DNA of 40,347 nucleotides, taken from the UHGV virus genome UHGV-0039399; one strand, given 5' to 3'. Position numbers and translations under genes: made by a program. Below the pieces are notes generated by a model. It was not told where the DNA came from and ran no database searches. It worked only from the letters and a program-made list of their open reading frames with translations. Of this stretch, positions 4,597 through 33,852 are shown one piece after another. Numbering within the stretch: the first letter of the stretch is position 1; each line of letters opens with the position of its first letter. This DNA comes from a virus.

Positions 4597-4608
4597 GATA
4601 TTTTCCTT

Positions 4609-4941
4609 TTATAGCGGATGATGCCATCTCATTTCAGTTTCTGGATTGAACGGGTGTCCTTCACTTGAAAGGAATAAATCACGCGCCCGGTTTAGCTCTT
4701 CCTGGCTTACTTCAATTTCATCAATCTGACCGAACGATCCAGGCATCATCCGTTTCAAATCAGATAGCGGGCGCATAAGGCCACAGCCACGCAACATCAT
4801 ATCTAACGCGAACTGCCGCCGCCCTGCCGCATCATTAAAGCGCCGCGCATAAGGAACAACCACGATCCGGCGCTCGAACTCAATAAATAGCGATAGCTTG
4901 TTAGTTTCAGCGTCATACGCTTTATGGAATTTAATTCTCAT
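4609..4941 (-). CDS. hypothetical protein
   Basis: 110-aa ORF in the operon array. Confidence 0.55.
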   Translation of the reverse strand: MRIKFHKAYDAETNKLSLFIEFERRIVVVPYARRFNDAAGRRQFALDMMLRGCGLMRPLSDLKRMMPGSFGQIDEIEVSQEELNRARDLFLSSEGHPFNPETEMRWHHPL

Positions 4942-16636: not shown

Positions 16637-16854
16637 TGGATAAGATCGGCGCAATACTCATTAATCGCGAGCAAGTGCAAAAAATGTTGGGCGGGCTTAG
16701 TAAGTCGGCGTTTTTTAAACTGGTTAAGAAGTGGAAGGATTCAGGTACTCCATTCCCTGAACCCGTTAAGGGGATGCCAGCATTAAAGCGCGGCGGTTAT
16801 CTTTACCGTTATCAGGATGTTATTTCATTTTGTAAATCAATGGGCTTCATGTAG
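16636..16854 (+). CDS. excisionase-like / AlpA-type small DNA-binding protein
   Basis: 72-aa protein with the excisionase-type HTH pattern (INREQVQKMLGGLSKSAFFKLVKK); adjacent to int, 3' ends overlap by 43 bp. Confidence 0.6.
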   Translation: MDKIGAILINREQVQKMLGGLSKSAFFKLVKKWKDSGTPFPEPVKGMPALKRGGYLYRYQDVISFCKSMGFM

Positions 16855-20916: not shown

Positions 20917-20925
20917 ATTCTACCA
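20917..20925 (-). promoter_or_regulatory. candidate extended -10 (TGgTAGAAT) for the tail fiber gene
   Basis: Minus-strand TGGTAGAAT about 30 nt upstream of the start codon, in the divergent intergenic region. Confidence 0.3.
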
Positions 20926-21051
20926 TTTTGTGATCTATGTTGCATTTTCTGTTCACACAAAACGTATTTGTTGATTTATATCAATATACGAAATGTGGTT
21001 TTGTCGGATATTTAAGCCACCGGATGAGCAAGCAAGAATGAGGATTCAAAA

Positions 21052-21300
21052 ATGAAAAACGTGTTCAAAGTGGTTTTGTTCGCTGCGGCTGTAGCTCTTA
21101 CTGGCTGTGCTGTTGACAAAGAGGCTGCATTGCATAACCTGCCGAATAGCGGAGTGATTCCACAAGATGTTGTATATGATGGAAGCGGTCATCTTGTCTA
21201 TGACACTGAAAAACTGCCGTATACTGGGCAATGGTGTCATGAACTCGATCACAACATGCGCCGCATCGGTAGCCCTTCGAACTGTGTAGCTAACTACTAA
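21052..21300 (+). CDS. small lipoprotein, candidate Cor/Llp-like superinfection exclusion protein
   Basis: 82 aa; signal peptide with lipobox LTGC; GAGGA RBS; opposite strand between J and the tail fiber gene, ending in a strong terminator. Confidence 0.6.
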   Translation: MKNVFKVVLFAAAVALTGCAVDKEAALHNLPNSGVIPQDVVYDGSGHLVYDTEKLPYTGQWCHELDHNMRRIGSPSNCVANY

Positions 21301-21304
21301 AAGA

Positions 21305-21335
21305 AAACCCCGCGCGAAGCGGGGTTGTTTTTTTA
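21305..21335. terminator. bidirectional rho-independent terminator (lipoprotein gene / J)
   Basis: CCCCGC-gcgaa-GCGGGG hairpin followed by a T-run on the plus strand and an A-run/U-tract on the minus strand. Confidence 0.7.
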
Positions 21336-24300: not shown

Positions 24301-26711
24301 AAGTTTTCAGTCGGTTTTCCTGATGCCTCAACAAAGTCTGACACACCAAAGGCATTACGCGTGCGCACATAAACGTAATATTTATGGCCCGTGTTCATGC
24401 CGCCAAAAGTCCATTGGTAGCCGCGCCCGGTGAATTGCGCCAGCATGGTTACTTTTGATGGGTCTGTGATCTGGTTTTCACCTGAGTAATAAAACTCGTA
24501 TGCTGTATCAGTGGTCAGGGTTGTTTTGCTGATCGGATATACCGTTGCCTGGAAGACACCGGGAACCCAATTGACTCCAATCGGGGCTGCTGGCGCACCA
24601 ATAACCAGGTCAACAATACTTTCAGCACCCTTCATGCCAGTGTCATTACGCCCGCGAATACCAAGCGTGTAGCTGCCAGCATCCAGGCCATAAAAATCAT
24701 AGCGGTAATTCGTGGTTTCATAAGTTGCCACAATGCGGCCTTCGGTGTTATATACGCGTATTTCAAAGGTCAGGCGATGCGTTGTCGTCTGTGTTTCCCA
24801 TGTTGCGCGGCACTGGACTGTCTCAGAACCAACGTTTAACACCTTCAGATTTTCAATGTTCGGCACGCGGAAGTGATTAAGCGTGTCGTTGTTTACCTCG
24901 AAGATTGCGCCTTCATCAACTACAGCCTGTTTGTGCGGATCGTGCTGTGCAGCCTCAATGGTGTACACGCTGTTATTTTCGGTTTCCGCTACGCTGGTAA
25001 TTCGGCACAGAACAGGTTTTGCTGATTCAGTCGATACAGCAAACACGGTTCCGTTACGAATCCATGCTGGCGCTGACGCAAGGGTAATATTGTTTCCGTT
25101 AACCCCAGTGATCTGATGTTTTTTAAACTTGCCGTCGCTATCCAGTAAGCTGATAGTGTCGCCAGCCGCCACCAGATCAGAATCAACCTTGTCTACAGTT
25201 ATCACTTTCCCGTTATTCGCTACGATGCGACCGCCTAAACGAGCGGCTGCGCGGTTATTGTCGAGTATCTCGATAATATCCCCTGGGGTGAAGTGAATTG
25301 CGTCACGGGCCATTTTAAACGTGAATTTTGAGGGTTCGCGTTTTGCTGTTTCTATCAGCCATTTGCCAGCGCGGTACGCCTGCCCGCGTGACGTGCAACC
25401 GAAAGCCTCCAACGTGGTTTCGTTGTAACCATCGCGGGCGATCAGTTCGTCATCTGCCACGTATTCTTTTGATTGTTCCCAACCGTTTTCAGGGTCAGTC
25501 CATGACACGATAACGGCGTTGTAAGATTCTGCGCGAGCGATACTTGAACGAGTGAACGCGCCATCAACGACGTTTGCATTTGTGATAGTGGCAATTGGAT
25601 CTTGCGGTGCATCAATCATCACCGTAAGGCGCTGCCCGTCCCATAACGCGATACCACGGAACATGCCTGCAATGTTATCCAGCAAGTCGCGGGCGCTCAT
25701 TTGCTCCGTGATGTAAGCGTTAAGCGTCATGCGTGGTTCAAGGCCGCCGTAACCGTCGTTTACCAACTGGTCGCAGTATTGAGAAAGCGTATACAGTGCG
25801 CCGTCATCAACGTCGATGTAACCAGCGTGGCGGGCAAGCCCGAAGCGTTCATTTTTAACCAGATACCGGAAAAGCCACGCAGGGTTGTTGGTGTATGCCT
25901 TTTTGAAGCCACCAAGCCATAAGCCTGAATACGTGCGCGTTTCAGGGTCGTAGTTATCAGGCACATCAACAATCAGACCGCGCATGTGATAGGTGCGTGT
26001 CGGGGTATCAGTATACTGATCGTGGTCAATTACCGCGCCTGCTACAGCGGTGTGAGGATAAGATAAATTATCGTCGATTATCTCGCTGTAACTGCCCCAT
26101 CTGGTGTCATTGCGAAGTAGATCGCTTTTGCTGTCTGGCGTTACGCGACGAACGCGAATATCAAACGGTTTTTCATCCGGCGCCTGGATGATATGCGCTT
26201 CCATGTACTCGCCGCTTTGTTTACCAGGGCCAATTGTAATGCCTTTAACCAGTGACCACGATGTTGAGGATGAAGGCTTAACGTCAACCGCCAGCGTAAC
26301 CGATGTGTTGTATTGATTGCCCTTATCATCTGACTGAACCAAAGCATCAACGCCGAGATTCAGCCTTACGCGGTTAACGTTTGGATCTGAAACGGTTCGG
26401 ATTATTGGCGTATCGTGAGTTACTTTTGCGTTAACAATAACGGTTGATTCAATGGCGTTGAATCCGTTGATTGGTGACTGGTCAGCCGTACCATTACGCC
26501 ACGCCACGCTAACGCCAGGGACTGATGTACCTCCGTTGGCGTCAGTGATTGGGCTGTCATTAAGCATAACGCTGTTTAATGGCGCTTTCTGGTTTACAGG
26601 TCCGTAGATTGGGCCTTCGCTGAGAATGTCCAAAACGCGATAAAACTGTTTATGAAACAGGTTATCGTTTAATAATGTTGGTGTTTTGGCTTTGCCGCCG
26701 CCGCTACTCAT
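21333..26711 (-). CDS. J: central tail fiber / host specificity protein J with expanded coiled-coil stalk
   Basis: 1792 aa; N-terminal region and C-terminal domain align with my recollection of lambda gpJ; a roughly 660-aa repetitive coiled-coil insertion lies between them. Confidence 0.9.
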   Translation of the reverse strand: MSSGGGKAKTPTLLNDNLFHKQFYRVLDILSEGPIYGPVNQKAPLNSVMLNDSPITDANGGTSVPGVSVAWRNGTADQSPINGFNAIESTVIVNAKVTHDTPIIRTVSDPNVNRVRLNLGVDALVQSDDKGNQYNTSVTLAVDVKPSSSTSWSLVKGITIGPGKQSGEYMEAHIIQAPDEKPFDIRVRRVTPDSKSDLLRNDTRWGSYSEIIDDNLSYPHTAVAGAVIDHDQYTDTPTRTYHMRGLIVDVPDNYDPETRTYSGLWLGGFKKAYTNNPAWLFRYLVKNERFGLARHAGYIDVDDGALYTLSQYCDQLVNDGYGGLEPRMTLNAYITEQMSARDLLDNIAGMFRGIALWDGQRLTVMIDAPQDPIATITNANVVDGAFTRSSIARAESYNAVIVSWTDPENGWEQSKEYVADDELIARDGYNETTLEAFGCTSRGQAYRAGKWLIETAKREPSKFTFKMARDAIHFTPGDIIEILDNNRAAARLGGRIVANNGKVITVDKVDSDLVAAGDTISLLDSDGKFKKHQITGVNGNNITLASAPAWIRNGTVFAVSTESAKPVLCRITSVAETENNSVYTIEAAQHDPHKQAVVDEGAIFEVNNDTLNHFRVPNIENLKVLNVGSETVQCRATWETQTTTHRLTFEIRVYNTEGRIVATYETTNYRYDFYGLDAGSYTLGIRGRNDTGMKGAESIVDLVIGAPAAPIGVNWVPGVFQATVYPISKTTLTTDTAYEFYYSGENQITDPSKVTMLAQFTGRGYQWTFGGMNTGHKYYVYVRTRNAFGVSDFVEASGKPTENFDEISDYVMKDVMESEQFKGMIGDIKDLGDRADLIESATNDLKNATDNLKTATDNLTNITDDLRVETDNLINITDELRTDTDGLITETGAIKADTDTLKKETEDLYKKVGENADDIGHHEARIDSLEVSSEKVGSELAQAKASLQNASLALINNSLAQTNTRVTLTAQYKKGRTETKAEIDRIDNVIAEEKKATAESLETITAEMNTMDSNLKGQISSVERAVADEASARAEAINGVNASISNLDKKTDASVNRLDQAIADETNARTQAVSDVNASVSSLDKKTDASVKRLDQAIADETSARTEAISGVNASISTLDSKVTSNVTRIDKAIADETKARTDAISGVKASIDTLEGNTNSEVKRLDQSIADEASARAQAVSDVKASISNLESKTDASVSRLDKAIADETQARSAAITDVNADLTTLENSTNASVKRLDQAIADESSARAEAISGINAEIGSIENSVDKNSDDINQTKASLQNASIALINNSIAQTNTRVTLTAQYKKGRKETNAQIDRIDSVIAEEKKATAEAIGVVKASITDLDKKTDASVSRLDKAIADETNARSEAISGVNASINTLESNTESEVSRLDQAIADEASARAQAISGVNASISTLDGKVTSNVTRIDKAIADETKARTDAINSLNSSLTSTINSKVSEVSTALSTHEASSAEKFGQISASFESVNSSITEWSQAMATADEALSNKIDQLTVTVNGNTTAIQTTSKALTDFKGNVDATYSIKLATDNNGMKYATGMSLGLTGNGTNVQSQCIFLVDRFVLMTAANGTYTAPFYVSNGAMYVKEAFIKNASIGTAKIADAAITTAKIAQQIQSTNYAAGSSGWMINKNGSAELNNVTVRGAVYASSGKFSGSLEAKTFIGDVANMYTGSDVSRTRDGELVKTITYTDTSDAAHSRHVCVMANVKGYGGCTITIGGSSKASMVDGTERLVMHSSAVTSKSVTVTIKVSAQNSKGAYIQSPTVIVSRGSGSFSG
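22190..24200. repeat. in-frame tandem repeats within J (84-bp/28-aa units, acidic heptads, and a duplicated block about 1 kb apart)
   Basis: Repeated protein unit RLDQAIADETxARxEAISGVNASISxLDxKTDASV about 12 times; the anchor KASLQNAS(L/I)ALINNS(L/I)AQTNTRVTLTAQYKKGR occurs twice (DNA near 22880 and 23880). Confidence 0.8.
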
Positions 26712-26725
26712 GGTTTTTTCTCCTG

Positions 26726-27256
26726 TTAACTTACAACGTCCAGGGCGTCTCTGTTGTTGCTTGTGTCTATGCCTAACGACCCGACATTTGAACCTATTTT
26801 CATTTCACCCAACAGGATCGGCACTGGTCTACCCTGGCCTACCTTGTTTTCAACGCTGGTGTATGTGTTGTTAGATATGGTGTTATCTTGTGCGCTTTCT
26901 GCTGATGTTTTTATCTTCATGTTGCGTGACATAAAGATCGAGAATGCAACGCTAACAACCGAAACACCGATCAAAATCCAACCTACAACGCCAATCCCAG
27001 CAATACCACCTTCCACCACTGGCGCAACAATGACTGTGGTTCCGTCCTGGTATTTACTGTTAACCGCTGCGGGCGCGGTATTTTCGTCATAATCTTTCCC
27101 GGCAATTCGTAAGCGCAATGGGGTACTTAAAAACGCCTTTTTGAACTCATGATTCTGCGCAACCAGCAAGCCAAGCCCCTGCGCTGGCGTGTCAACGTTT
27201 AAACACACTTTGCCGTAATATCTTCGAAGATTGCCCGTAAATCTAAACTTGAGCAT
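26726..27256 (-). CDS. I: tail assembly protein I
   Basis: Matches my recollection of lambda gpI (ubiquitin-like N-terminus, hydrophobic Gly-rich middle, PVPILLGEMKIGSNVGS vs lambda LPVLYGEMRVGSRVVS). Confidence 0.85.
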   Translation of the reverse strand: MLKFRFTGNLRRYYGKVCLNVDTPAQGLGLLVAQNHEFKKAFLSTPLRLRIAGKDYDENTAPAAVNSKYQDGTTVIVAPVVEGGIAGIGVVGWILIGVSVVSVAFSIFMSRNMKIKTSAESAQDNTISNNTYTSVENKVGQGRPVPILLGEMKIGSNVGSLGIDTSNNRDALDVVS

Positions 27257-27930
27257 TTGTCAGATCTCCATATTGAATTGGTCTGTCGAACATACGCGGG
27301 CCGCATTTGCTCGCGGCGGCTTAACAGTCCGGCATTGTCATGATGCAAAACAGTGTTATCGCCCAGGTAAATCATCGCGTGGCATGGGTCAGCGCCTTTA
27401 AACGGCTGGCGAATAATCACGTCACCTGGCTGAATGCTTTGCGCGTCAACCATGAAAAACCCGTGCAATGGCAGGTTCTTTATGTACAGGTTTTCCCCAC
27501 GCAGCCACCACCCATCGTGGCGCTCAAAATCAGGTAGATCCACGCCGCAAAGATGGTAGGCGTCACGGAAAAGCGAGTAACAATCTGCTTTCCCATGTTC
27601 AAATTTACGGCCCAACAGGTGCGCCACCGGGCGGAATTTTCTTACCCTGCCGCCGGAACACAAATACCACGGCAGACCGGAAATGACCTGCTGTTGCCGA
27701 TCCCGTGCTGACAATATCAACGAATTGTCAGTATGGGAGTGAAAAACGGCGGTTATAACGCCTAATTCGTCAGCATTGATATAATCGTCAGGCGAGATTT
27801 TAAAACTGTTGTGCGGCGCTTCAGACACGTTAGCGCACGGGTAAAAATAATCATCATCTATCACCAGCCCGCACACTTCCTCGCGAGGGTGGGCTGCGGC
27901 GTAGCGAATCATTTTATTTTCAAGTGCCAT
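27199..27930 (-). CDS. K: tail tip assembly protein K (JAMM/MPN plus NlpC/P60 domains)
   Basis: Strong similarity to lambda gpK as I recall it (HSH metal site, RKFRPVAHLLGRKFEHG, DCYSLFRDAYHL); start refined to ATG 2 nt after the L stop. Confidence 0.9.
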   Translation of the reverse strand: MALENKMIRYAAAHPREEVCGLVIDDDYFYPCANVSEAPHNSFKISPDDYINADELGVITAVFHSHTDNSLILSARDRQQQVISGLPWYLCSGGRVRKFRPVAHLLGRKFEHGKADCYSLFRDAYHLCGVDLPDFERHDGWWLRGENLYIKNLPLHGFFMVDAQSIQPGDVIIRQPFKGADPCHAMIYLGDNTVLHHDNAGLLSRREQMRPAYVRQTNSIWRSDKCSSLDLRAIFEDITAKCV

Positions 27931-27932
27931 AA

Positions 27933-28637
27933 TTAACCCACCTTGCTGGACCCAGGGAAGCACGAAATCGGTAACGAATTAGGGCGTGGGAAACGCAAAC
28001 GGCAACCGCTCAGGCGGTGGCTGCACCTATCCAGCTTCGGATCGCTGGTCGATTCGTCTTTTTCGGTAGCTACAGGGCCGCCGCTGTATCCGCAACCGTC
28101 GCCCCGGTATTGCCACTGGCAAACGTCGGCGAGGATTGTGCGCCCAGGGATAACAGCCTTGTCAGCATCAATTGGCGTTGACAGTTCGTATTGCACATGA
28201 TCTGCCGTTTCTTCGCTCATCGCCTCAATGACGTAAAAAGATACCGCCTCGATAGACGGATCTGCATCCGGGTTGCCATTGGGGAAGTTGACGGCGTCCA
28301 GGTATTTTACTTCCACCTGGCGGCGCGTAACCTTCATCCCTCGCAGGTCGTTAAAGTCGTTGTTCATCCCGGTAATTAGCCCACCAATGTTAGCCACTGC
28401 CATCTGCGGGCGTGAGTAAACGCCTTCATTTTTCATTTCGAAGCCAGTGGCCTCGATTGGGTAGCTGTTGTAAGCCAATCCCTTCCAGATAACAGGGCCG
28501 TAATAGCCATTCGCGCCGGAATGGAAGCGGATAACCTCGCCACCCAGGGGCGTGAGGTCTAATTCAAACAAGTCAATTACCGCGCCGACTCCGGCATCGA
28601 CGGAATCAATAATCATCTCTGTAGGTATGTTGCGCAT
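27933..28637 (-). CDS. L: minor tail protein L
   Basis: Strong similarity to lambda gpL as I recall it (LDAVNF.NGN..ADP, GR..LA..C.W.YRGD.CGYSG, C-terminal Cys cluster). Confidence 0.9.
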   Translation of the reverse strand: MRNIPTEMIIDSVDAGVGAVIDLFELDLTPLGGEVIRFHSGANGYYGPVIWKGLAYNSYPIEATGFEMKNEGVYSRPQMAVANIGGLITGMNNDFNDLRGMKVTRRQVEVKYLDAVNFPNGNPDADPSIEAVSFYVIEAMSEETADHVQYELSTPIDADKAVIPGRTILADVCQWQYRGDGCGYSGGPVATEKDESTSDPKLDRCSHRLSGCRLRFPRPNSLPISCFPGSSKVG

Positions 28638-28690
28638 TTTATCACCTTGTCATTTTGTGATCGCCATCACGCTAAATCATACCAAAACGG

Positions 28691-28718
28691 TTGATAGCGT
28701 TTTTACAATATGTATATT
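28691..28718 (+). promoter_or_regulatory. candidate sigma70 promoter for the L-M cassette (-35 TTGATA, 16-bp spacer, -10 TATATT)
   Basis: Near-consensus hexamers about 20 nt upstream of the first cassette ORF; the CAAAACGGTT motif sits just upstream. Confidence 0.45.
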
Positions 28719-28734
28719 GTACTCAAAAGGAAGC

Positions 28735-28920
28735 ATGGTTAACAAAATGGCGCGGAGGTGTGAGGTGGATGATAAGGTGTGGAGGTTGACGGTATTCCTT
28801 AGTGATGGCAGGGAAATGACTGTGGCCCTGTATAAAGATGAAGGCGAGGCACTTACTGACGCGCTCTTACTCGCTGAAGATGAACGAGTTTTTGGATACA
28901 GGATCGAACCTGTCAAATGA
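28735..28920 (+). CDS. small acidic protein (61 aa), L-M cassette gene 1
   Basis: ORF with AAAGGAAG RBS on the strand opposite the tail operon. Confidence 0.5.
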   Translation: MVNKMARRCEVDDKVWRLTVFLSDGREMTVALYKDEGEALTDALLLAEDERVFGYRIEPVK

Positions 28921-28933
28921 GAGGTTAACAAAA

Positions 28934-29284
28934 ATGCAAAAATACAGTTTAGAGGTCTGGACTGATAAATGTGAATGGGAGCGCATGGGCCTGTTTGATA
29001 CATACGCCGCAGCGCGTGATGAAGGTCGTGAGTTACTTCGCTGTTGGTCTGGCGCTCGTGATTTTGATATTACTCCGGTCCAGGTGCCGGATATGGTGGA
29101 AGAGATGAACCCGAAAGATATTAACTTCAACGTCAATGTTGAATTTTCAGACTCTATGGATCAGGCTTGCCCTGGTGAAATTCACGCAAAAGGTTTTCCG
29201 GCAGACGATCCAGAAGCAAAACGCGAATACGAAAAAGCTGCGAAAGACTTCTGCATTGATAACCTGGGCGCATTCGATAAATAA
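28934..29284 (+). CDS. acidic protein (116 aa), L-M cassette gene 2
   Basis: GAGAGG RBS; start refined from the track ORF 28838-29284; strongly acidic C-terminal half. Confidence 0.55.
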   Translation: MQKYSLEVWTDKCEWERMGLFDTYAAARDEGRELLRCWSGARDFDITPVQVPDMVEEMNPKDINFNVNVEFSDSMDQACPGEIHAKGFPADDPEAKREYEKAAKDFCIDNLGAFDK

Positions 29285-29293
29285 GGGGGACAC

Positions 29294-29542
29294 ATGGGTC
29301 GGCGCAACCACGGCGATTATGTGTACACGCTGAAACAGGCCGCCCGCCTCGTCGGGTATCATGAGCACGAATTTATTGATTTGCTGATTGAGCGCGGGAT
29401 ACTTTACCAGGTCTGTCTGACGCTGTACCCAAAAGCGAAATACCTACAGGAAAAGTTATTTATCATCATGACGGACGAAAACCAGGTAAATCACTCATTC
29501 GTCACTGATAAAGGTGTCAACTATCTGCGTGATAACTTATAG
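29294..29542 (+). CDS. small HTH DNA-binding protein (82 aa), L-M cassette gene 3
   Basis: GGGGG RBS; N-terminal excisionase/MerR-like HTH (YTLKQAARLVGYHEHEFIDLLIERGIL). Confidence 0.55.
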   Translation: MGRRNHGDYVYTLKQAARLVGYHEHEFIDLLIERGILYQVCLTLYPKAKYLQEKLFIIMTDENQVNHSFVTDKGVNYLRDNL

Positions 29543-29551
29543 GCGGCAATT

Positions 29552-29623
29552 ATGGATGAGGTTATCGAGAATGTTTTGGTAGTGGCTGGCGCAATTGCCA
29601 TAGTTTATGCCTTTCTGAGCTAA
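29552..29623 (+). CDS. 23-aa hydrophobic peptide, L-M cassette gene 4
   Basis: Manually found ORF MDEVIENVLVVAGAIAIVYAFLS; very short, tentative. Confidence 0.25.
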   Translation: MDEVIENVLVVAGAIAIVYAFLS

Positions 29624-29634
29624 TGGGGTGGATT

Positions 29635-29772
29635 ATGAAAATCGAAGTTTTAGCATTAATCGCAATGGGCTTGATCGTCTTCGGTGTTCACGCTGCTGGT
29701 TGGGACTGGGCTGCAATAGCAAACAACATGGCGCACGCTCACCCAATGAGCTTGCTGTATATTCACTACTGA
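29635..29772 (+). CDS. 45-aa membrane peptide, L-M cassette gene 5
   Basis: Manually found ORF MKIEVLALIAMGLIVFGVHAAGWDW...; followed immediately by a strong terminator. Confidence 0.35.
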   Translation: MKIEVLALIAMGLIVFGVHAAGWDWAAIANNMAHAHPMSLLYIHY

Positions 29773-29777
29773 CAAGA

Positions 29778-29808
29778 AAAACCCCGCTTCGCGCGGGGTT
29801 GTTTTTAT
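29778..29808 (+). terminator. rho-independent terminator ending the L-M cassette
   Basis: CCCCGC-ttcgc-GCGGGG hairpin plus T-run; same stem and flanks as the terminator at 21305-21335 but with a reverse-complemented loop. Confidence 0.7.
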
Positions 29809-29990
29809 ACGCCATCAACCAAAAATAAAACCTCCTTGCCCTCCCTGGATCTGCACCCGACATACCCGTCACCCATATCATGCAAATACCATATATCGCC
29901 ATTGTCAGCTTTTACAGCAAGGTCGTTGATCTCATAGTCGGCAAATAATGTAAAAGATTCAGTCTTATCAACCACACAAAAACCGTACAT
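29805..29990 (-). CDS. small protein (61 aa) downstream of M
   Basis: ORF with GGTGGGGGG RBS, starting 15 nt after the M stop. Confidence 0.4.
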   Translation of the reverse strand: MYGFCVVDKTESFTLFADYEINDLAVKADNGDIWYLHDMGDGYVGCRSREGKEVLFLVDGV

Positions 29991-30005
29991 AACAACCCCC
30001 CACCG

Positions 30006-30359
30006 TTAGCCAACAACTTGTTCAAACGTTGCGTTTAGCGTGCAAACAGGCCCGTCTTTGGTCATATTCCAGCTACGACAAACGAAAAGCCTTTGCACCC
30101 CGTCGGTCGATGGAGTCCAGTAAAACGCCTCGACCGCGCCGCGCGCCCTTAAAAATGCGTCAACCTGTAGCGCGACATTTCCTGCTGCACCGCATCCTGC
30201 ACTACTTCCTTTGAAAACCAGGGTATAAGTATCAAGTAACGTGTTGATCCCTTTCGCCTGGCGCTGCTCATAACCGTCACCAAGTTTAACGACGGACACG
30301 TTTGGTTCAGTGTTTACGCTGTAGCTTCTTTGCGGCGTCCATTTGAAAACTTCAGGCAT
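30006..30359 (-). CDS. M: minor tail protein M
   Basis: Similar to lambda gpM as I recall it (GDGYEQR vs GDGYSQR; C-terminal FEQVVG vs FEQVVN); start refined to the ATG preceded by a G8 tract. Confidence 0.85.
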   Translation of the reverse strand: MPEVFKWTPQRSYSVNTEPNVSVVKLGDGYEQRQAKGINTLLDTYTLVFKGSSAGCGAAGNVALQVDAFLRARGAVEAFYWTPSTDGVQRLFVCRSWNMTKDGPVCTLNATFEQVVG

Positions 30360-30533
30360 GATCCCCCCCCTCTCATAAGTTACATATTGCATACATCTTT
30401 ACGCGCTTCTACGCGAAAAATGATAACTTCGTCACAAGAATTATACCAAGTTTACGAAATGGCTTCACACAGGACGCAACAAGATGTATACAGAAAGCAA
30501 GAAGAGAAAGCAGTACCAACAAAGGGGGCCAAT

Positions 30534-30689
30534 ATGGAACGCTATGTAGTGGTAATGCTAAACAAAGCATTCGAACAGGTGGAAGTTGCGATTGTGAAGG
30601 GTTTTGATGATGCATTCAAATACGGTCAATTCATGATGAATGCAAAAGAAGATGAATACCGTGATTTCTTCCTGAAAGTGGTCAACTGA
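30534..30689 (+). CDS. small protein (51 aa), M-tape-measure cassette gene 1
   Basis: AAGGGGG RBS; opposite strand to the tail operon; the track's longer ORF 30330-30689 has weaker start context. Confidence 0.45.
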   Translation: MERYVVVMLNKAFEQVEVAIVKGFDDAFKYGQFMMNAKEDEYRDFFLKVVN

Positions 30690-30709
30690 TTGATTGCGCG
30701 GGGTGAGTT

Positions 30710-30964
30710 ATGAAATTGGTGGCGATTGGCAAAAACCTGAAAGCACAGAAAAACGCACAGGAACGGATCATCAAAAAAGGCAAGGCTTTATTAAATTCTT
30801 TCCTGAAAAAAGAGGCCAACCCCAAAAAATTACGCGATGGCTACGGCTATAAATTTGACATCAACCCCGATTGGCGGTTATTCAGCGAAGATTTAAAGAT
30901 GTGGTTAATTATTGACCATCTGGAATACAACCGCCACTGTGGCGTAAAAGGGGCGCATAAATGA
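30710..30964 (+). CDS. basic Lys-rich protein (84 aa), cassette gene 2
   Basis: ORF with GGGGTGAG RBS-like context. Confidence 0.5.
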   Translation: MKLVAIGKNLKAQKNAQERIIKKGKALLNSFLKKEANPKKLRDGYGYKFDINPDWRLFSEDLKMWLIIDHLEYNRHCGVKGAHK

Positions 30965-30972
30965 GGTGAAAT

Positions 30973-31065
30973 ATGGATGACGATAAATTCACCTGGCGGG
31001 AGATCTGGAACATCTGGCAGGTGATGTTTGCTCGCAGCTACATAGCAAGAAACGGCAGGTTGTGA
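30973..31065 (+). CDS. 30-aa peptide, cassette gene 3
   Basis: Manually found ORF with GAGGTGA RBS; tentative. Confidence 0.25.
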   Translation: MDDDKFTWREIWNIWQVMFARSYIARNGRL

Positions 31066-31083
31066 TTTGCGGAGGAAAATAAA

Positions 31084-31254
31084 ATGAAAAACCCGGCAAA
31101 TAAAAGCAATGTAAAACGTATGGCATGGGTGCTAAAATATATGGATAGCAAAGGGGATACATATACATGTCCATTTTTCAGGTATACTGACGCGGTATTT
31201 GCCAGAAGTGTACACGGAGGGAAAATTGAAAGAGGGTATACAAGATTTGAGTAA
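31084..31254 (+). CDS. small protein (56 aa), cassette gene 4
   Basis: Manually found ORF MKNPANKSNVKRMAWVLKYMDSKGDTYTCPFF...; GGAGG RBS. Confidence 0.4.
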   Translation: MKNPANKSNVKRMAWVLKYMDSKGDTYTCPFFRYTDAVFARSVHGGKIERGYTRFE

Positions 31255-31289
31255 ATTTATTCAGTAAATTAATAACATAATGAAGGTTT

Positions 31290-31472
31290 ATGATGATTAT
31301 TCACGAGACTGAAGAATGCAGAAGGATTGATCTTAGTGTTGAAGATGATGGAAGATTATGGATCGTTAGCGACTGCGAGATGATTGTAATAAACAAAAAG
31401 CAAGCTGACGAACTGATAAGAGCATTACAGCTTTATGCAAGCGGCGAATTTAAGAATGATGAAATTGAATAA
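31290..31472 (+). CDS. small acidic protein (60 aa), cassette gene 5
   Basis: ORF with GAAGG RBS, followed by a terminator. Confidence 0.5.
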   Translation: MMIIHETEECRRIDLSVEDDGRLWIVSDCEMIVINKKQADELIRALQLYASGEFKNDEIE

Positions 31473-31475
31473 AGA

Positions 31476-31506
31476 TAACCCCGGCATTGTACCGGGGTTT
31501 TGTTTA
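31476..31506. terminator. rho-independent terminator between the convergent cassette and tape measure gene
   Basis: CCCCGG-cattgta-CCGGGG hairpin followed by TTTTGTTTATTT. Confidence 0.65.
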
Positions 31507-33852
31507 TTTCCTGCGAGGTTGCAACATACCGCCAGGTCGTTGTGATTCCCTTGCCATCATTTTCATTGCTACGCGCTCCATCGTCTGTTCAAGTCTGCGA
31601 CCGTCTTCGTCGCTAAACCCGTTCGTGGTATGGACGTTTATGTTAACGGGCATATTTATGCCGCCACCATTGAAGAGATCACGGCCAGGAATCACCCTAC
31701 CATTCTCGCCAGGAATCATATACTGACGCCCGTTGCTCGTCTGGAATAGCTCAGGAATCCCGTGTTCACCTACGCGATACAGACTACCACCATTAACAGA
31801 ACCACCATTATAACGCCCGCCGCCAAAAATTGACGTTGCCAGCGACATGATCGCAGAAAGCGCCGCAGCACCAGCCGCCGCCCAGCTACCGCCAGTCGAT
31901 GCAGCAGTAGCCGCCGCAGCAGGGGCCGCCGCAGCCGCGATCTCACCCTGGGCAGCAACAGCGCCAGCCGTTGTACTTGCCTGGGTAGCTTTGCTTTGCG
32001 TTTCCATCATCAACTGATCTGCTATCCAGTTAGCGGCAATTTCTGATAGTTTATTGCCAACAGTATTGAGTATGCTGCTTCCCAGGTTGGCGAAAACCTC
32101 ACTTAGCGATTGAGTACCGTTTAGCAGTCCGGTAAGGGCATTACCCATGCCACCTTTCAGGCCGCTGACGCACGCACCAATCAGGCCGTTTGTGTCGCTT
32201 TGCGCCTGCCATTGTTCCCATTTCAGATCTCTGATCTGTTGTTCATATTCCAATAGAGCCTGTTTCTGTTGCGCCTCTGTAGCGCCCAGGTCTATTAGCA
32301 TTTGTTTTCGAACTGCCCATTCATTTTGCGCCTGCTTGATTGGGTCAATTTCTCCCTTAAGCTGGTCCATCGGGCTAACTATGTGGTCCCATTTATCGCG
32401 TAGCTCATCAACCGGGATCTGAGCTAATTCGTCCTTCAGTTCCTTGCCTATCCCTTTCTGCGCGGCCTTGTACTCAAGGAGGGTTATTTTGCCCTGGGCG
32501 AACGCAGCATCAATGGCCTTGCCGTTCTCCAGCGCCTTACGCATGGCTGCGGCGTCCTTGTTGTACTGGTCGGACACTTTTATACCTTCATCACCAAGCC
32601 GATCAGCTTCTGATTTCTTGTCCTTTTTGCCCTTTTTCCCTTTCTTCGGCTTACCAACTGGCTGATCGAATCCCGTGATCTTGCCATCGTCAGCCTCACC
32701 CTGTTTCTGCATAAACTCATCATAGGCGGCTGTGGCTTTTTCTATGTCATTCTTAAATGTCATGAATTTGCCAATGGTAGGGCCAAATTTCTTCTCGTTG
32801 TTGCTGTTTAGCTCTTCCTTGCGTTTGTCAATGATTTCCTTCATCCATTTGTAGCCATCCATTAGCGCCTTGATTGGCGTCACCATTCTGATGATTTCTT
32901 CCGCCACCTCTCCCGCTTTAACAGCAACATCGTCAAACATGTCGATGAACTCGCTACCAGCGGTTTTAAGTGTATTGAAGCAGGTTGCGGCGAATTTTGC
33001 GCCTTTACCTAATCCCTCAACGCCACCAGTGATTAAGTCTATTGCTGACACAACGCCATCTGATATGCCGAAAAGATCGTCTAGCTGTTCGACAAGCCCC
33101 ATTACCTCAACTTTAAGCTCGTTGAAGGCCATGCCGGACGTGCGCGGCAACTGTGCGAACTTCTCGTTCGTTTCCTGCGTGGATGCCTGGATCGCGTTGA
33201 GCATCCTTTCAGCCGTGATCTTACCGTCCAGCATTTCGGCGCGGAATTGACCCATTGATAACCCCATTTGGCGGGCCATTTCCTGTATGATTGTTGGTGT
33301 GTTGTCACGTATTGAGTTAAATTCTTCAGCCTGCAACACGCCAGCATCAATAGCCTGGCGGAACTGGCGCATGGAGTTAGATAGCTGTTCCGCAGACACG
33401 CCGCCCAGGTTGCCTAGTTTTTGCAGCGTGCTGACCAGGTTTAAGACCTGGCCTTCCGTAGCGGATGTATTTTTTAGCGATATAGCAAGCCCTTGCCACA
33501 GGTCGCCAGTGTCCTTGAGGCTTTGGCCTGTCTCTTTTGATATATCTTTCAGTCTGTTGAAAACGCGTTCCGTGGCCTCTGCTTCACCTGTAAGCAGTTT
33601 GATTTTCACGCGAAGCATTTTTGCTTGCTCCGCCATGTCAATAAACTGGCGCACAGCCTCCGCAGCAAGTAACAGATGGATGACCCTGGATAGTGCTTTG
33701 ATTGAAGTCTTAAGCGTATTCACCTGGCGGTCAGCGCGTTTTGCGCCACGCTCGATACTGTCAAAAGCCTGGTCTGCCTGTCGTTGAGCAACGAGAAGTT
33801 GACCAGTTTTTGCATCAACTTCGTAATAGATTGTACCTAAACTACCCGACAT
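31504..33852 (-). CDS. tail tape measure protein
   Basis: 782-aa, largely alpha-helical, Ala/Gln-rich ORF with a Gly-rich C-terminal region, positioned between tail chaperone and M. Confidence 0.9.
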   Translation of the reverse strand: MSGSLGTIYYEVDAKTGQLLVAQRQADQAFDSIERGAKRADRQVNTLKTSIKALSRVIHLLLAAEAVRQFIDMAEQAKMLRVKIKLLTGEAEATERVFNRLKDISKETGQSLKDTGDLWQGLAISLKNTSATEGQVLNLVSTLQKLGNLGGVSAEQLSNSMRQFRQAIDAGVLQAEEFNSIRDNTPTIIQEMARQMGLSMGQFRAEMLDGKITAERMLNAIQASTQETNEKFAQLPRTSGMAFNELKVEVMGLVEQLDDLFGISDGVVSAIDLITGGVEGLGKGAKFAATCFNTLKTAGSEFIDMFDDVAVKAGEVAEEIIRMVTPIKALMDGYKWMKEIIDKRKEELNSNNEKKFGPTIGKFMTFKNDIEKATAAYDEFMQKQGEADDGKITGFDQPVGKPKKGKKGKKDKKSEADRLGDEGIKVSDQYNKDAAAMRKALENGKAIDAAFAQGKITLLEYKAAQKGIGKELKDELAQIPVDELRDKWDHIVSPMDQLKGEIDPIKQAQNEWAVRKQMLIDLGATEAQQKQALLEYEQQIRDLKWEQWQAQSDTNGLIGACVSGLKGGMGNALTGLLNGTQSLSEVFANLGSSILNTVGNKLSEIAANWIADQLMMETQSKATQASTTAGAVAAQGEIAAAAAPAAAATAASTGGSWAAAGAAALSAIMSLATSIFGGGRYNGGSVNGGSLYRVGEHGIPELFQTSNGRQYMIPGENGRVIPGRDLFNGGGINMPVNINVHTTNGFSDEDGRRLEQTMERVAMKMMARESQRPGGMLQPRRK

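What the first reader, a model, noticed from the sequence alone, without database searches (positions are those of the whole stretch)
28638..29810. Opposite-strand five-gene cassette between tail genes L and M with an anti-defense-like layout
In lambda, L and M are adjacent. Here a 1.2 kb insert on the opposite strand carries a promoter-like element (TTGATA-16-TATATT), two small acidic proteins (61 and 116 aa), a small HTH protein (82 aa), two tiny membrane peptides and a strong terminator. Small acidic proteins followed by an HTH regulator is the architecture of anti-CRISPR/Aca and other anti-defense loci. It could equally be a lysogenic-conversion moron; the sequence alone cannot decide.
Basis: partly seen in the sequence, partly recalled or inferred. 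Interest (0 to 1): 0.75.

Follow-up and report, generated by a model that had tools for sequence, protein, structure and literature searches.

The report
Antisense accessory operon inside tail genes
A temperate E. coli phage of the mEp021 group carries, between tail genes L and M and on the opposite strand, a real five-gene mini-operon with its own promoter and terminator; it is an accessory "moron", not virion parts, and most likely works in phage-host or phage-phage conflict, but its function is untested and it matches no known anti-CRISPR family.

Summary
Window 28638-29810 has a conserved sigma-70-type promoter, five tightly packed + strand genes and a bidirectional terminator, set antisense between tail genes L and M of an mEp021-group (mEpimmI) coliphage.

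Corrections:
- ORF1 is 51 aa (GTG 28765), not 61.
- The "HTH protein" is a stand-alone KilAC/ANT domain. In tested systems that domain acts on the host (division arrest, SOS inhibition), not as an Aca-type repressor.

All genes are under purifying selection. About 54 related loci carry the cassette, two have deleted it, and more distant relatives have L and M adjacent or hold other small cargo there. So it is a moron in an insertion hotspot.

New findings:
- ORF1 and the ORF2 N-domain are paralogous beta-beta-alpha-beta domains, with a DUF7336-like fold common in phages.
- The ORF2 N-domain recombines independently of all its neighbours.
- The conserved ORF2 C-module plus both tiny membrane peptides recurs as a self-contained early-type unit in virulent rV5-like phages.
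- The promoter has a conserved CRP-type site and a palindrome over the -10.
- lpp, an experimentally shown exclusion gene in the same tail operon, shares upstream motifs and the terminator hairpin.

Best reading (about 0.4): a prophage-expressed exclusion or abortive conflict module. Anti-defence remains possible (about 0.25).

The parts
28656..28671 (+). CRP-type site TGTGA-N6-TCACG. Its centre lies about 61.5 bp upstream of the predicted transcription start (62.5-63.5 in most relatives).
   Evidence: There are only two such sites in the 40-kb window, against 0.35 expected. The half-sites are the same in 39 of 43 distinct related promoters, while the 6-bp spacer takes 13 forms. Binding by CRP is inferred, not shown.
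28691..28718 (+). Sigma-70-type promoter TTGATA-16-TATATT (TTGATC-17-TATATT in most relatives).
   Evidence: 10/12 match to consensus. The -10 hexamer is invariant in 43 distinct promoters. The promoter is retained even in the two deletion derivatives.
28704..28721 (.). Perfect 8-2-8 palindrome TACAATAT-GT-ATATTGTA overlapping the -10; a candidate operator.
   Evidence: unique in the window, 0.02 expected. It is perfect in 13 of 43 related promoters and one mismatch off in 29. A related core, ACAAnATGTATA, sits at the predicted -10 region of the cassette-2 promoter (the lpp upstream region shows looser similarity). The binding protein is unknown.
28765..28920 (+). ORF1: 51 aa, acidic (pI 4.4), a free-standing copy of a beta-beta-alpha-beta domain ('D').
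   Evidence: AlphaFold2 pLDDT 91, with strands 6-12, 17-23 and 42-49 and a helix at 26-37. dN/dS 0.21. hhalign against the ORF2 N-domain gives Prob 88%, E 3.2e-6 over 47 columns. The family is found only in E. coli phages and prophages.
28934..29083 (+). ORF2 N-domain (aa 1-50): a second, highly variable copy of domain D.
   Evidence: pLDDT above 90, beta-beta-alpha-beta. Foldseek against BFVD matches small phage proteins including DUF7336 proteins, with prob 1.0, best E 2.5e-3 and target TM 0.6-0.83. Its pairwise distances do not correlate with any neighbouring gene (rho 0.03-0.21).
29105..29284 (+). ORF2 C-module (aa 58-116): conserved, acidic, with invariant C79 and C107 and nearly invariant H84.
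   Evidence: Alignment A1. dN/dS 0.08 for aa 73 onward. AlphaFold2 confidence is low apart from a helix at 93-108. It occurs as a stand-alone 56-66 aa protein in other phages.
29294..29542 (+). ORF3: 82 aa, a stand-alone KilAC/ANT domain, and the most conserved cassette gene.
   Evidence: Pfam PF03374, E 1.3e-6, 29.1 bits against a 25.3 cut-off. Identity across loci is 89-100% in all but one (74%), and dN/dS is 0.10. It contains TDKG, matching the 'TxKG' motif reported for KilAC proteins (bioRxiv 10.1101/2024.01.05.574328; read by eye).
29552..29623 (+). ORF4: 23-aa membrane peptide MDEVIENVLVVAGAIAIVYAFLS.
   Evidence: GRAVY 1.63. It is 19/23 identical in an rV5-like phage contig, with pN/pS 0.12 at pS 0.80. 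It is present in only some mEpimmI loci.
29635..29772 (+). ORF5: 45-aa peptide with a signal-peptide-like or transmembrane N-terminus (…FGVHA|A) and a Met/His-rich tail.
   Evidence: It is present in 32 of 46 distinct cassettes, in 45-aa and 38-aa forms; others carry a different 24-aa hydrophobic peptide instead. An rV5-like homologue is 55% identical with pN/pS 0.34. Export and cleavage are inferred from the sequence only.
29780..29806 (.). Bidirectional intrinsic terminator: stem AACCCCGC/GCGGGGTT plus a T-run.
   Evidence: -16.6 kcal/mol, z = -3.1. The same stem, with the loop inverted, ends the lpp gene at 21306-21326.
29805..29990 (-). m61: 61-aa acidic ORF on the tail-gene strand, directly after M. 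It is part of the inserted block.
   Evidence: phrog_3249. dN/dS 0.10. It is present in every locus that has the cassette and is lost together with it in L009 and L048. Homologues of 44-52% identity lie among small non-structural genes of T1-like virulent phages such as Rtp rtp57.

Best explanation
SHOWN (about 0.9): this is an autonomous accessory operon (a moron), not virion components. It lies antisense inside the Q-type, antitermination-dependent tail operon of an mEpimmI phage. It has its own host-type promoter and a bidirectional terminator, and sits at a junction (M-L) that is a recurrent insertion hotspot. It is one of three antisense units in this tail operon: lpp, this cassette, and a second cassette between M and the tape-measure gene.

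INFERRED function (about 0.4): a conflict module that is expressed from the prophage and before late transcription starts. It would protect the lysogen or the phage by superinfection exclusion or abortive growth arrest.

Proposed working:
1. Host RNA polymerase fires the promoter independently of the phage repressor. No repressor-type operator is present.
2. A CRP-type site modulates the promoter, and a palindrome over the -10 throttles it. The protein that binds the palindrome is unknown.
3. The conserved ORF2 C-module acts together with the two tiny membrane peptides at the inner membrane. These three genes travel together between unrelated phages.
4. The two paralogous D domains (ORF1 and the ORF2 N-domain) supply specificity. 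The ORF2 copy is an independently recombining allele, as expected for a part that recognises a variable outside partner.
5. ORF3, a stand-alone KilAC domain, is the candidate growth-arrest or SOS-blocking effector.
6. After induction, convergent read-through from the late promoter is expected to silence the cassette. This is the 'noncontiguous operon' logic shown for phi80 taiEcA/atiEcA.
For: Autonomy and accessory status:
- Promoter, terminator and composition shift.
- About 54 related loci carry the cassette. Two have lost positions 28749-29988 between TAACAA repeats while keeping the promoter.
- Relatives whose M is 58-68% identical have M-L gaps of 5-45 bp. Others have 302-610 bp holding unrelated small ORFs, including pairs of one same-strand and one opposite-strand ORF.
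- All genes are under purifying selection.

Not under repressor control: the immunity region (repressor at 7973-8620) is inside the window, and nothing resembling the palindrome occurs there.

Regulatory footprint: TGTGA-N6-TCACG half-sites are conserved over a hypervariable spacer.

Precedent in the same genome: lpp (21052-21300, lipobox LTGC) is also antisense in this tail operon.
- It shares the exact 11-mer ATTTTGTGATC upstream (12 nt, CATTTTGTGATC, by alignment), an ACAATAT-like core, and the same terminator stem.
- Lpp proteins of this phage group exclude superinfecting phages when expressed (PMC11893012).

Membrane link: in about 120-140-kb rV5-like contigs the C-module, ORF4 and ORF5 form a unit bounded by its own promoter and terminator.

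Specificity domain: ORF1 and the ORF2 N-domain are homologous. A natural fusion D-D-C exists (P0049). ORF2-N distances are uncorrelated with flanking genes.

KilAC as an effector: AriS (PMC9043618), CreP (bioRxiv 10.1101/2024.01.05.574328) and phi11 Gp07 (PMC5944126).

Architecture precedent: phi80 tai/ati (PMC11364771).

The neighbouring antisense cassette carries a ParE-like toxin gene (PF24732, E 1.6e-11).
Against: - There are no expression data. Promoter use, CRP dependence and silencing by late transcription are all inferred.
- No cassette protein matches any PADLOC defence model. PADLOC dates from 2023.
- The C-module/ORF4/ORF5 trio and the m61 homologues occur in strictly virulent phages (rV5-like, T1-like), in early-type regions. 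A lysogen-protecting role cannot apply there. This fits an infection-phase function (takeover, anti-defence or early exclusion) at least as well.
- m61 shows no specific covariation with any cassette gene, so nothing supports it as a dedicated antidote.
- ORF3 is nearly invariant while ORF1 and ORF2-N vary widely. That argues against a simple co-evolving toxin-antitoxin pair.
- The KilAC match is modest (29 bits), and effector activity is extrapolated from distant homologues.
Confidence: 0.4

Rival explanations
1. Anti-defence operon with Acr/Aca-like logic. The promoter gives an early burst on infection. ORF1 and ORF2 (small, acidic, fast-diversifying) bind and neutralise a host immune component. 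ORF3 then represses the promoter at the palindrome, so that antisense transcription does not collide with the tail operon.
For: - Variable acidic proteins sit upstream of a conserved third gene, with a palindrome over the -10.
- Extra small genes are inserted before or after ORF3 in some loci, so the cargo is variable.
- The ORF2 N-domain behaves as an independently recombining allele.
- Cassette parts and m61 are shared with virulent phages in early-type regions.
- A dedicated shut-off makes sense for a strong antisense promoter inside a late operon (inference).
Against: - No similarity to any annotated anti-defence family in Pfam or PHROGs, and no significant fold match in the PDB. The phi29 p56 UDG inhibitor appears only at E 0.27, prob 0.3.
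- ORF3 is KilAC, not a known Aca type. Tested KilAC domains are effectors, not repressors (PMC9043618; bioRxiv 10.1101/2024.01.05.574328).
- The palindrome variant does not track the ORF3 variant.
- Membrane peptides and a CRP-type site are atypical.
- No dedicated Acr or anti-defence database was available, so this is not a full test.
Confidence: 0.25
2. Host-takeover or life-cycle control module serving the phage's own development. ORF3 (KilAC) would block cell division or RecA/SOS. Alternatively it would act as an antirepressor that triggers induction in response to cAMP-CRP, in a phage group whose repressor is not RecA-cleavable. The other products would tune membrane physiology or lysis timing.
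For: - KilAC domains inhibit SOS, probably through RecA (PMC9043618), and cause filamentation (bioRxiv 10.1101/2024.01.05.574328; PMC5944126). The domain is also named for antirepressors.
- mEpimmI repressors lack the cleavage site and their lysogens are not UV-inducible (PMC11893012). Some other induction route must therefore exist.
- CRP-type site at the promoter.
- The C-module/ORF4/ORF5 unit has early-type promoters in rV5-like phages.
Against: - The cassette has been deleted in two otherwise intact-looking prophage tail regions, so it is dispensable there. Whether those prophages are viable is unknown.
- A division inhibitor not under repressor control would burden lysogens unless neutralised.
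- This model does not explain the diversity of ORF1 and ORF2-N.
- There is no evidence that ORF3 contacts the phage repressor.
Confidence: 0.15
3. Selfish toxin-antitoxin or addiction module. Acidic ORF1 and ORF2 would be antitoxins, and KilAC and/or the membrane peptides would be toxins. The complex would autoregulate at the palindrome and stabilise the prophage without a defence role.
For: - Gene order is acidic small proteins first, candidate toxin after, with a palindrome over the -10.
- The stand-alone KilAC protein CreP is bacteriostatic (bioRxiv 10.1101/2024.01.05.574328).
- The adjacent cassette has a 51-aa gene followed by a ParE-like toxin gene.
Against: - There is no co-variation between ORF1 or ORF2-N and ORF3 (rho 0.26 and 0.08).
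- The partners of the C-module elsewhere are the peptides, not KilAC.
- The module also sits in virulent phages, where addiction has no meaning.
- ORF1 shows no detectable relation to the cassette-2 51-aa protein (hhalign E 0.24).
Confidence: 0.08
4. Structural or assembly proteins of the tail, that is, conserved virion-related components.
For: - The position between tail genes.
- Presence in nearly all members of the phage group.
Against: - Opposite strand, with its own promoter and terminator.
- Deleted in two relatives and absent from the next-related tail modules.
- No match to any structural family.
- Parts recur in non-structural regions of rV5-like phages.
- The mEp021 virion proteomics paper does not list these genes among the structural proteins it discusses (PMC11893012, main text only; supplements not checked).
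Confidence: 0.02

Closest known systems
Morons of lambdoid phages (Juhala/Hendrix sense; e.g. lambda bor, HK97 gp15; review PMC3594210)
   Same: - An independent promoter-gene(s)-terminator unit sits between two genes that are adjacent in relatives.
- Its composition differs from the flanks.
- It is dispensable in some relatives.
   Different: - It has five genes rather than one.
- It carries a dedicated regulatory architecture (CRP-type site plus palindrome).
- Its gene families are ORFans restricted to this phage group and a few virulent phages.
phi80 taiEcA/atiEcA 'noncontiguous operon' (PMC11364771)
   Same: - An opposite-strand unit interrupts the Q-dependent late operon.
- A small same-strand gene (m61) lies next to it and is lost together with it.
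- Silencing by convergent late transcription is expected.
   Different: - No homology could be tested, and the sizes differ (TaiEcA 26 kDa against 51-116 aa here).
- The position differs: between tail genes here, upstream of the packaging genes in phi80.
- m61 has homologues in T1-like phages without the cassette, and it does not covary with the cassette.
Lpp/Cor-type exclusion lipoprotein moron of the same phage (window 21052-21300; PMC11893012)
   Same: - It sits in the same tail operon in the same antisense orientation.
- It shares the upstream 12-mer CATTTTGTGATC (by alignment; an exact 11-mer by pattern search) and the same terminator stem.
- Its product is targeted to the membrane or periplasm.
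   Different: - lpp is a single lipoprotein gene with a lipobox, and it has been tested experimentally.
- The cassette has no lipobox, and it also encodes soluble acidic proteins and a KilAC protein.
acr-aca operons (Pseudomonas JBD30-type)
   Same: - Small acidic variable proteins sit upstream of a conserved small gene.
- An inverted repeat lies in the promoter.
- The unit is embedded among structural genes.
   Different: - The third gene is KilAC, not a known Aca family.
- The orientation is antisense.
- The cassette includes membrane peptides and a CRP-type site.
- There is no homology to known Acr proteins.
Stand-alone KilAC proteins (CreP of Acinetobacter, bioRxiv 10.1101/2024.01.05.574328) and KilAC domains of AriS / phi11 Gp07 / P1 KilA
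   Same: - ORF3 is a single KilAC domain scoring above the Pfam threshold.
- It contains the TxKG motif.
   Different: - ORF3 is 82 aa, against 103 aa for CreP.
- It is distantly related, and its activity is untested.
- The genomic setting is different.

Membership tests
Moron (autonomous accessory transcription unit in a phage late region) | Own promoter and own terminator flanking the gene(s) | tested here: met
   TTGATA-16-TATATT with an invariant -10 in 43 related promoters, and a terminator of -16.6 kcal/mol. These are consensus and conservation evidence, not transcript mapping.
Moron (autonomous accessory transcription unit in a phage late region) | Lies between two genes that are adjacent in related phages, and is absent from some relatives | tested here: met
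   The L-M gap is 127-128 bp in L009 and L048, and 5-45 bp in several more distant relatives.
Moron (autonomous accessory transcription unit in a phage late region) | Composition distinct from the flanking genes | tested here: met
   GC is 0.43-0.50 against 0.54-0.56 in L, and the GC skew sign reverses.
acr-aca (anti-CRISPR) operon | At least one product homologous to a known Acr family | tested here: inconclusive
   There are no hits in Pfam, PHROGs or NCBIfam, nor by fold in the PDB. No dedicated Acr or anti-defence library was available.
acr-aca (anti-CRISPR) operon | Downstream conserved gene is an Aca-type HTH autorepressor | tested here: not met
   The only family match of ORF3 above threshold is KilAC/ANT, PF03374. 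No XRE- or DUF1870-type HTH match was found. Tested KilAC domains act as effectors (PMC9043618; bioRxiv 10.1101/2024.01.05.574328).
acr-aca (anti-CRISPR) operon | Inverted repeat operator in the acr promoter | tested here: met
   An 8-2-8 palindrome overlaps the -10. Who binds it cannot be tested here.
acr-aca (anti-CRISPR) operon | Inhibits a CRISPR-Cas system | not testable with these tools
   This needs plaque or transformation assays.
KilAC/ANT domain family (ORF3) | Pfam PF03374 score above the gathering threshold over most of the domain | tested here: met
   29.1 bits against 25.3, covering profile positions 23-105 of 108. NCBI annotators give homologues the same name.
Type II toxin-antitoxin module | Antitoxin and toxin co-evolve as a cognate pair | tested here: not met
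   Distance-matrix correlations with ORF3 are 0.26 for ORF1 and 0.08 for ORF2-N, no higher than the background between unlinked neighbours.
Type II toxin-antitoxin module | A product with a recognised toxin fold or activity | tested here: inconclusive
   KilAC is toxic in other systems (literature), but ORF3 is untested. The ParE-like domain is in the neighbouring cassette, not this one.
Noncontiguous-operon defence/counter-defence pair (Tai/Ati type) | Opposite-strand unit interrupting the antitermination-dependent late operon | tested here: met
   Gene order and strands. Q-like antitermination in this phage group is reported in PMC11893012.
Noncontiguous-operon defence/counter-defence pair (Tai/Ati type) | Adjacent late-strand gene that neutralises the antisense-encoded product | tested here: inconclusive
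   m61 is always present with the cassette and is deleted together with it. However, it shows no specific covariation, and homologues exist in T1-like phages without the cassette.
Noncontiguous-operon defence/counter-defence pair (Tai/Ati type) | Sequence homology to Tai or Ati proteins | not tested
DUF7336-like small phage domain (ORF1, ORF2 N-domain) | Same fold and family profile | tested here: inconclusive
   Foldseek against BFVD gives prob 1.0 and target TM up to 0.83, but the best E-value is only 2.5e-3. The Pfam HMM scan gives no DUF7336 hit at E <= 1.

The most novel reading that the evidence does not exclude
The conserved ORF2 C-module together with the 23-aa and 45-aa membrane peptides would be a previously unrecognised three-gene phage conflict unit. 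It is shared by temperate mEpimmI siphophages and virulent rV5-like myophages. In mEpimmI it has been fused to a recombining DUF7336-like specificity domain and coupled to a KilAC effector. There its expression would be gated by cAMP-CRP and by antisense read-through from the tail operon. This would be a new family of exclusion or anti-defence systems with a built-in switch between lysogeny and lysis.
Probability: 0.3. Interest if true: 0.7.

Novelty: new variant of a known kind. Interest (0 to 1): 0.5.

Why it matters
mEpimmI phages are reported to be as common in the human gut as lambdoid coliphages (PMC11893012), yet this conserved cassette is annotated only as hypothetical proteins.

If the model holds, four things follow:
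- It adds a multi-gene example to the emerging rule that antisense units inside late operons encode immunity-related functions switched by late transcription.
- It assigns a first biological context to a very widespread small phage fold (DUF7336-like).
- It defines a portable membrane-associated trio shared by temperate and virulent phages.
- It links prophage accessory-gene expression to host carbon status through CRP.

The cassette is small, the phages are in hand (mEp010, mEp021) and the host is E. coli K-12, so every step can be tested directly.

Tried and rejected
1. The 61-aa reading of ORF1 was rejected in favour of 51 aa, on ribosome-binding-site position, start codons in relatives and leader length.
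2. The PGAP name 'transporter' for ORF1 has no support: no family hit, and the model is a soluble 51-aa alpha/beta fold.
3. LexA control was rejected by eye. The palindrome reads ACAA-N8-TTGT, not CTGT-N8-ACAG.
4. Control by the phage repressor was rejected. No similar site exists in the immunity region within the window.
5. Remote homology for ORF2 was sought in three ways. The word-indexed search found 57 clusters, all from E. coli phages. Exhaustive HMMER against 1.84 billion representatives found 13 hits, all the same family or its fragments. A PDB profile search found nothing significant.
6. The HepS resemblance (FCI[DS]NLGAF, E 0.37) was judged not significant and is kept only as a lead.
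8. m61 as a cognate antidote was tested by Mantel tests and found no specific signal.
9. ORF1 is not detectably related to the cassette-2 51-aa protein.
10. No covariation of the palindrome variant with the ORF3 variant was seen, apart from the single most divergent locus, L010.
11. Scanning viral contigs for the palindrome returned only chance AT-rich matches and was uninformative.
12. Rfam found no RNA family in 28300-31700.
13. Neighbours of the rV5-like unit gave no informative family hits.
14. Overall positive selection was not seen. All dN/dS values are well below 1, though saturated pairs had to be dropped.


Full report
WHAT THE WINDOW IS

The window is most of a temperate coliphage genome of the mEp021 / 'mEpimmI' group. 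The cassette region is 89-93% identical to phages mEp010, mEp044, mEp554, mEp515, mEp013 and mEp021, and to prophages in 35 of 5,426 complete E. coli genomes.

The tail genes lie on the - strand:
- J: 21333-26711
- I: 26726-27256
- K: 27199-27963
- L: 27933-28637
- M: 30006-30392
- tape-measure gene: 31504-33852

The immunity repressor (7973-8620, HTH plus S24 peptidase) and the integrase (16812-18011) are also inside the window. The paper that describes this phage group does not discuss the L-M insert (PMC11893012).

Between L and M, on the + strand, are the following features:
- A promoter-like site, TTGATA-16-TATATT, at 28691-28718.
- Five tightly spaced ORFs.
- A bidirectional terminator at 29780-29800 (-16.6 kcal/mol, z = -3.1).

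GC content falls and GC skew changes sign across the insert.

The ORFs are real genes.
- Across 35-44 distinct alleles, dN/dS is 0.21 (ORF1), 0.21 (ORF2; 0.23 in the N-domain, 0.08 from residue 73 onward) and 0.10 (ORF3). Tail gene L gives 0.04.
- For the two tiny peptides, comparison with a distant homologue gives pN/pS 0.12 and 0.34 at near-saturated synonymous divergence.

Two corrections apply.
- ORF1 starts at GTG 28765 (51 aa), 6 nt after a GGAGG. Relatives have ATG at that position, and all other annotations nt.
- The 82-aa 'HTH' protein is a stand-alone KilAC/ANT domain (PF03374, above threshold).

A sixth gene belongs to the insert. This is a 61-aa acidic ORF on the tail-gene strand, directly after M (29805-29990, 'm61').

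IT IS AN ACCESSORY INSERT IN A HOTSPOT

I collected 66 loci through the M protein, plus annotated records, and typed them by tblastn.
- Every close relative (M at least 79% identical, about 54 loci) has ORF1, ORF2, ORF3 and m61.
- The two exceptions are E. coli MS 21-1 (L009) and L048. There L and M are 127-128 bp apart.
- Those two retain the promoter and have lost exactly 28749-29988, between short TAACAA repeats. They are deletion derivatives.
- In the next-related tail modules (M 58-68% identical) the M-L gap is 5-45 bp, or 302-610 bp filled with unrelated small ORFs. Several of those pair one same-strand ORF with one opposite-strand ORF.

Within the group the cassette has a fixed core and variable extras:
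- The core is ORF1-ORF2-ORF3.
- An extra 77-81-aa gene may precede ORF3.
- An extra 58-87-aa gene may follow ORF3.
- ORF4 is present or absent.
- ORF5 occurs in a 45-aa or a 38-aa form, or is replaced by a different 24-aa hydrophobic peptide.

PROMOTER ANATOMY

In 43 distinct related promoters the -10 TATATT is invariant, and the -35 is TTGATC or TTGATA.

An 18-bp perfect palindrome, TACAATAT-GT-ATATTGTA (28704-28721), overlaps the -10.
- It is unique in the window.
- In relatives it is perfect or one mismatch off.

Upstream lies TGTGA-N6-TCACG (28656-28671).
- The half-sites are conserved in 39 of 43 promoters, while the 6-bp spacer takes 13 forms. That pattern is the footprint of a dimeric DNA-binding protein.
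- The motif occurs only twice in 40 kb, against 0.35 expected.
- It matches the CRP core consensus at 9 of 10 positions (my knowledge of the consensus).
- If transcription starts about 7 nt after the -10, its centre lies at -61.5 (-62.5 to -63.5 in most relatives). That is near the class I position.
- CRP binding is an inference.

Nothing like the palindrome exists in the immunity region. It is also not a LexA box. The cassette is therefore probably not under repressor or SOS control.

THE PROTEINS

ORF1 and the ORF2 N-domain
- ORF1 folds confidently (pLDDT 91) as beta-beta-alpha-beta.
- The first 50 residues of ORF2 have the same topology at pLDDT above 90.
- Profile-profile comparison with diverse alleles gives Prob 88%, E 3.2e-6 over 47 colinear columns. 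Control pairs score E of 0.009 or worse over 10 or fewer columns.
- The cassette therefore holds two paralogous copies of one small domain.
- A natural variant fuses both copies and the C-module in a single 172-aa protein (P0049).
- Against predicted viral structures this domain matches over a thousand 50-70-aa phage proteins at E <= 10, including DUF7336 proteins (prob 1.0, target TM up to 0.83, best E 2.5e-3).
- Nothing in the PDB matches significantly.

ORF2 C-module
- Residues 58-116 are highly conserved, with invariant C79 and C107 and nearly invariant H84, but are modelled poorly.
- Exhaustive HMMER against 1.84 billion representatives finds only this family and a few stand-alone C-modules.

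Diversity pattern
- ORF2-N is the most diverse part of the cassette.
- Its pairwise distances are uncorrelated with every neighbour, including ORF1 and its own C-module (rho 0.03-0.21).
- It therefore behaves as an independently recombining allele.

ORF3 (KilAC)
- It is the most conserved cassette gene (89-100% identity in all but one locus, which has 74%).
- The literature on this domain points to effector activity, not operator binding:
  - The AriS KilAC domain blocks the SOS response, probably through RecA (PMC9043618).
  - The stand-alone KilAC protein CreP is bacteriostatic and causes filamentation (bioRxiv 10.1101/2024.01.05.574328).
  - The KilA-C domain of phi11 Gp07 inhibits growth (PMC5944126).
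- ORF3 carries the TxKG motif noted for these proteins.

A PORTABLE TRIO

In about 120-140-kb contigs related to rV5-like virulent myophages, I found a compact unit. A neighbouring protein on these contigs is 62% identical to those of rV5-type phages. The unit reads, in order:
- a near-consensus sigma-70 promoter;
- a stand-alone C-module (64-66 aa);
- an ORF4 homologue (19/23 identical);
- an ORF5 homologue (55% identical);
- a terminator.

Three conclusions follow. ORF4 and ORF5 are real genes. They are functionally tied to the C-module. The trio works during lytic infection in at least one lineage.

ORF5 has a signal-peptide-like N-terminus (…GVHA|A) and a Met/His-rich tail. ORF4 is a single hydrophobic helix. 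Both readings come from the sequence alone.

CONTEXT IN THE SAME TAIL OPERON

Two other antisense units exist in this tail operon.

lpp (21052-21300, lipobox LTGC)
- It is the exclusion lipoprotein that the mEpimmI paper tested experimentally (PMC11893012).
- Its upstream region shares the exact 11-mer ATTTTGTGATC (12 nt, CATTTTGTGATC, by alignment) and an ACAATAT-like core with the cassette promoter.
- Its terminator uses the same stem with the loop inverted.

The second cassette, between M and the tape-measure gene (about 30465-31499)
- It starts with a 51-aa protein followed by a ParE-like toxin-domain protein (PF24732, E 1.6e-11).
- It then holds variable small ORFs and a similar terminator.

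The late operon therefore has to read through three bidirectional terminators. Q-like antitermination is reported for this phage group (PMC11893012).

This arrangement is the 'noncontiguous operon' described for phi80. There the antisense taiEcA gene is expressed in the lysogen, a neighbouring late-strand gene (atiEcA) neutralises it during lytic growth, and Q-driven transcription lowers its expression (PMC11364771).

m61 occupies the Ati-like position and is lost together with the cassette. Two results fail to support it as a dedicated antidote:
- It does not covary specifically with any cassette gene.
- It has 44-52% identical homologues among small non-structural genes of T1-like phages such as Rtp.

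INTERPRETATION

Firmly supported: this is an autonomous, non-structural accessory operon (moron) in an insertion hotspot.

Function is inferred. I favour, at about 0.4, a conflict module expressed from the prophage and early in infection that excludes or aborts competitors. The reasons are:
- It has the same design, and shares regulatory and terminator sequences, with the proven exclusion gene lpp.
- It is independent of the repressor.
- It carries a host-physiology (CRP-type) input.
- Its products are directed to the membrane.
- It has a KilAC candidate growth-arrest effector.
- It has a conserved core with a recombining specificity domain.
- A toxin-domain cassette lies next door.
- The noncontiguous-operon precedent exists.

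The main counter-argument is that the trio and m61 are shared with strictly virulent phages. That fits an infection-phase role equally well.

The rival readings are:
- Anti-defence with Acr/Aca-like logic (about 0.25). This keeps the layout argument, but it has lost its Aca and has no homology support.
- Host takeover or induction control through KilAC (about 0.15).
- A purely selfish toxin-antitoxin module (about 0.08).
- A structural role (about 0.02).

NOVELTY AND VERDICT

- Kind: known (moron; antisense unit in a late operon).
- Content: new. It consists of ORFan families, a domain duplication and fusion, a portable C-module/peptide trio, and a distinctive promoter.
- Classification: a new variant of a known kind.
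- Interest: moderate (0.5). No function is demonstrated, but the system is compact, widespread in gut coliphages and directly testable in E. coli K-12.

Noticed in passing
window 30465-31499 (+ strand, between M and the tape-measure gene): A second antisense cassette. It has a putative promoter TTCACA-17-TATACA (30465-30493). Its genes are a conserved 51-aa protein (30534-30689, dN/dS 0.06), an 84-aa ParE-like toxin-domain protein (30710-30964, PF24732, E 1.6e-11, dN/dS 0.07), then variable small ORFs (30973-31065, 31084-31254, 31290-31472). A bidirectional terminator lies at 31477-31499. The first two genes look like an antitoxin-toxin pair. The 51-aa + ParE-like pair is present in most related loci (the ParE-like gene in all; the 51-aa gene was not detected in three), including those that lack cassette 1.
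   Followed up: partly
window 20925-21326: lpp (21052-21300, + strand, lipobox LTGC) is a third antisense moron, between the side tail fibre gene and J. It corresponds to the exclusion lipoprotein tested in PMC11893012. Its upstream region shares the exact 11-mer ATTTTGTGATC (12 nt, CATTTTGTGATC, by alignment) with the cassette-1 promoter region. That 11-mer occurs nowhere else in the window. Its terminator (21306-21326) is the cassette-1 hairpin with the loop inverted.
   Followed up: partly
window 29805-29990 (- strand): The 61-aa acidic ORF after M (phrog_3249) has 44-52% identical homologues in T1-like virulent phages (Rtp rtp57, 2725-N35, Rogue1 and others). There they lie among small genes between the replication and lysis genes. 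One is annotated 'putative minor capsid protein', which looks unsupported.
   Followed up: partly
window 363-378: A perfect CRP-consensus palindrome, TGTGATATAAATCACA. It is the only other TGTGA-N6-TCAC site in the window. It lies just before a + strand ORF starting at 381 and after the end of a - strand ORF at 401.
   Followed up: no
ORF2 residues ~88-115 (window ~29195-29278): The conserved C-terminal stretch GFPADDPEAKREYEKAAKDFCIDNLGAF resembles HepS residues ~160-188 (…[24 protein letters not shown]). HepS is a Gifsy-1 HEPN abortive-infection protein that senses tail-tip protein J. The PDB-wide E-value is only 0.37, so this may be chance. ORF2 has no Rx4-6H motif.
   Followed up: partly
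L059, L063, L075 (about 4330-4880), L061, L062 (about 4345-4640): In tail modules whose M is about 65% identical, the M-L junction carries other cargo. One form is an 85-95-aa same-strand ORF with a CCRY…W motif. Another is a same-strand 51-82-aa coiled-coil-like ORF plus an opposite-strand 65-72-aa ORF with its own upstream region. The second form has the same 'one late-strand gene plus one antisense gene' design as here.
   Followed up: no
L010 4001-4519 (protein P0049): A natural 172-aa fusion of an ORF1-like domain, the ORF2 N-domain and the C-module replaces the separate ORF1 and ORF2. It is paired with the most divergent ORF3 (74% identity) and the most divergent palindrome (CACATTACGTATATTTTA).
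   Followed up: partly
window 29294-29542: ORF3 has an unusually low synonymous divergence among relatives (mean dS 0.41, against 0.63-1.05 for its neighbours). This could reflect recent recombinational sweeps or an extra constraint at the nucleotide level, such as an antisense or regulatory element.
   Followed up: no
window 28765-28920 and homologues: NCBI PGAP names ORF1 homologues 'transporter'. Nothing supports that name. No family matches, and the protein is a soluble 51-aa alpha/beta fold.
   Followed up: yes
L002 1648-2214 (mEp021): mEp021 carries an HNH endonuclease gene inserted between J and I. The window and the other relatives examined lack it.
   Followed up: no
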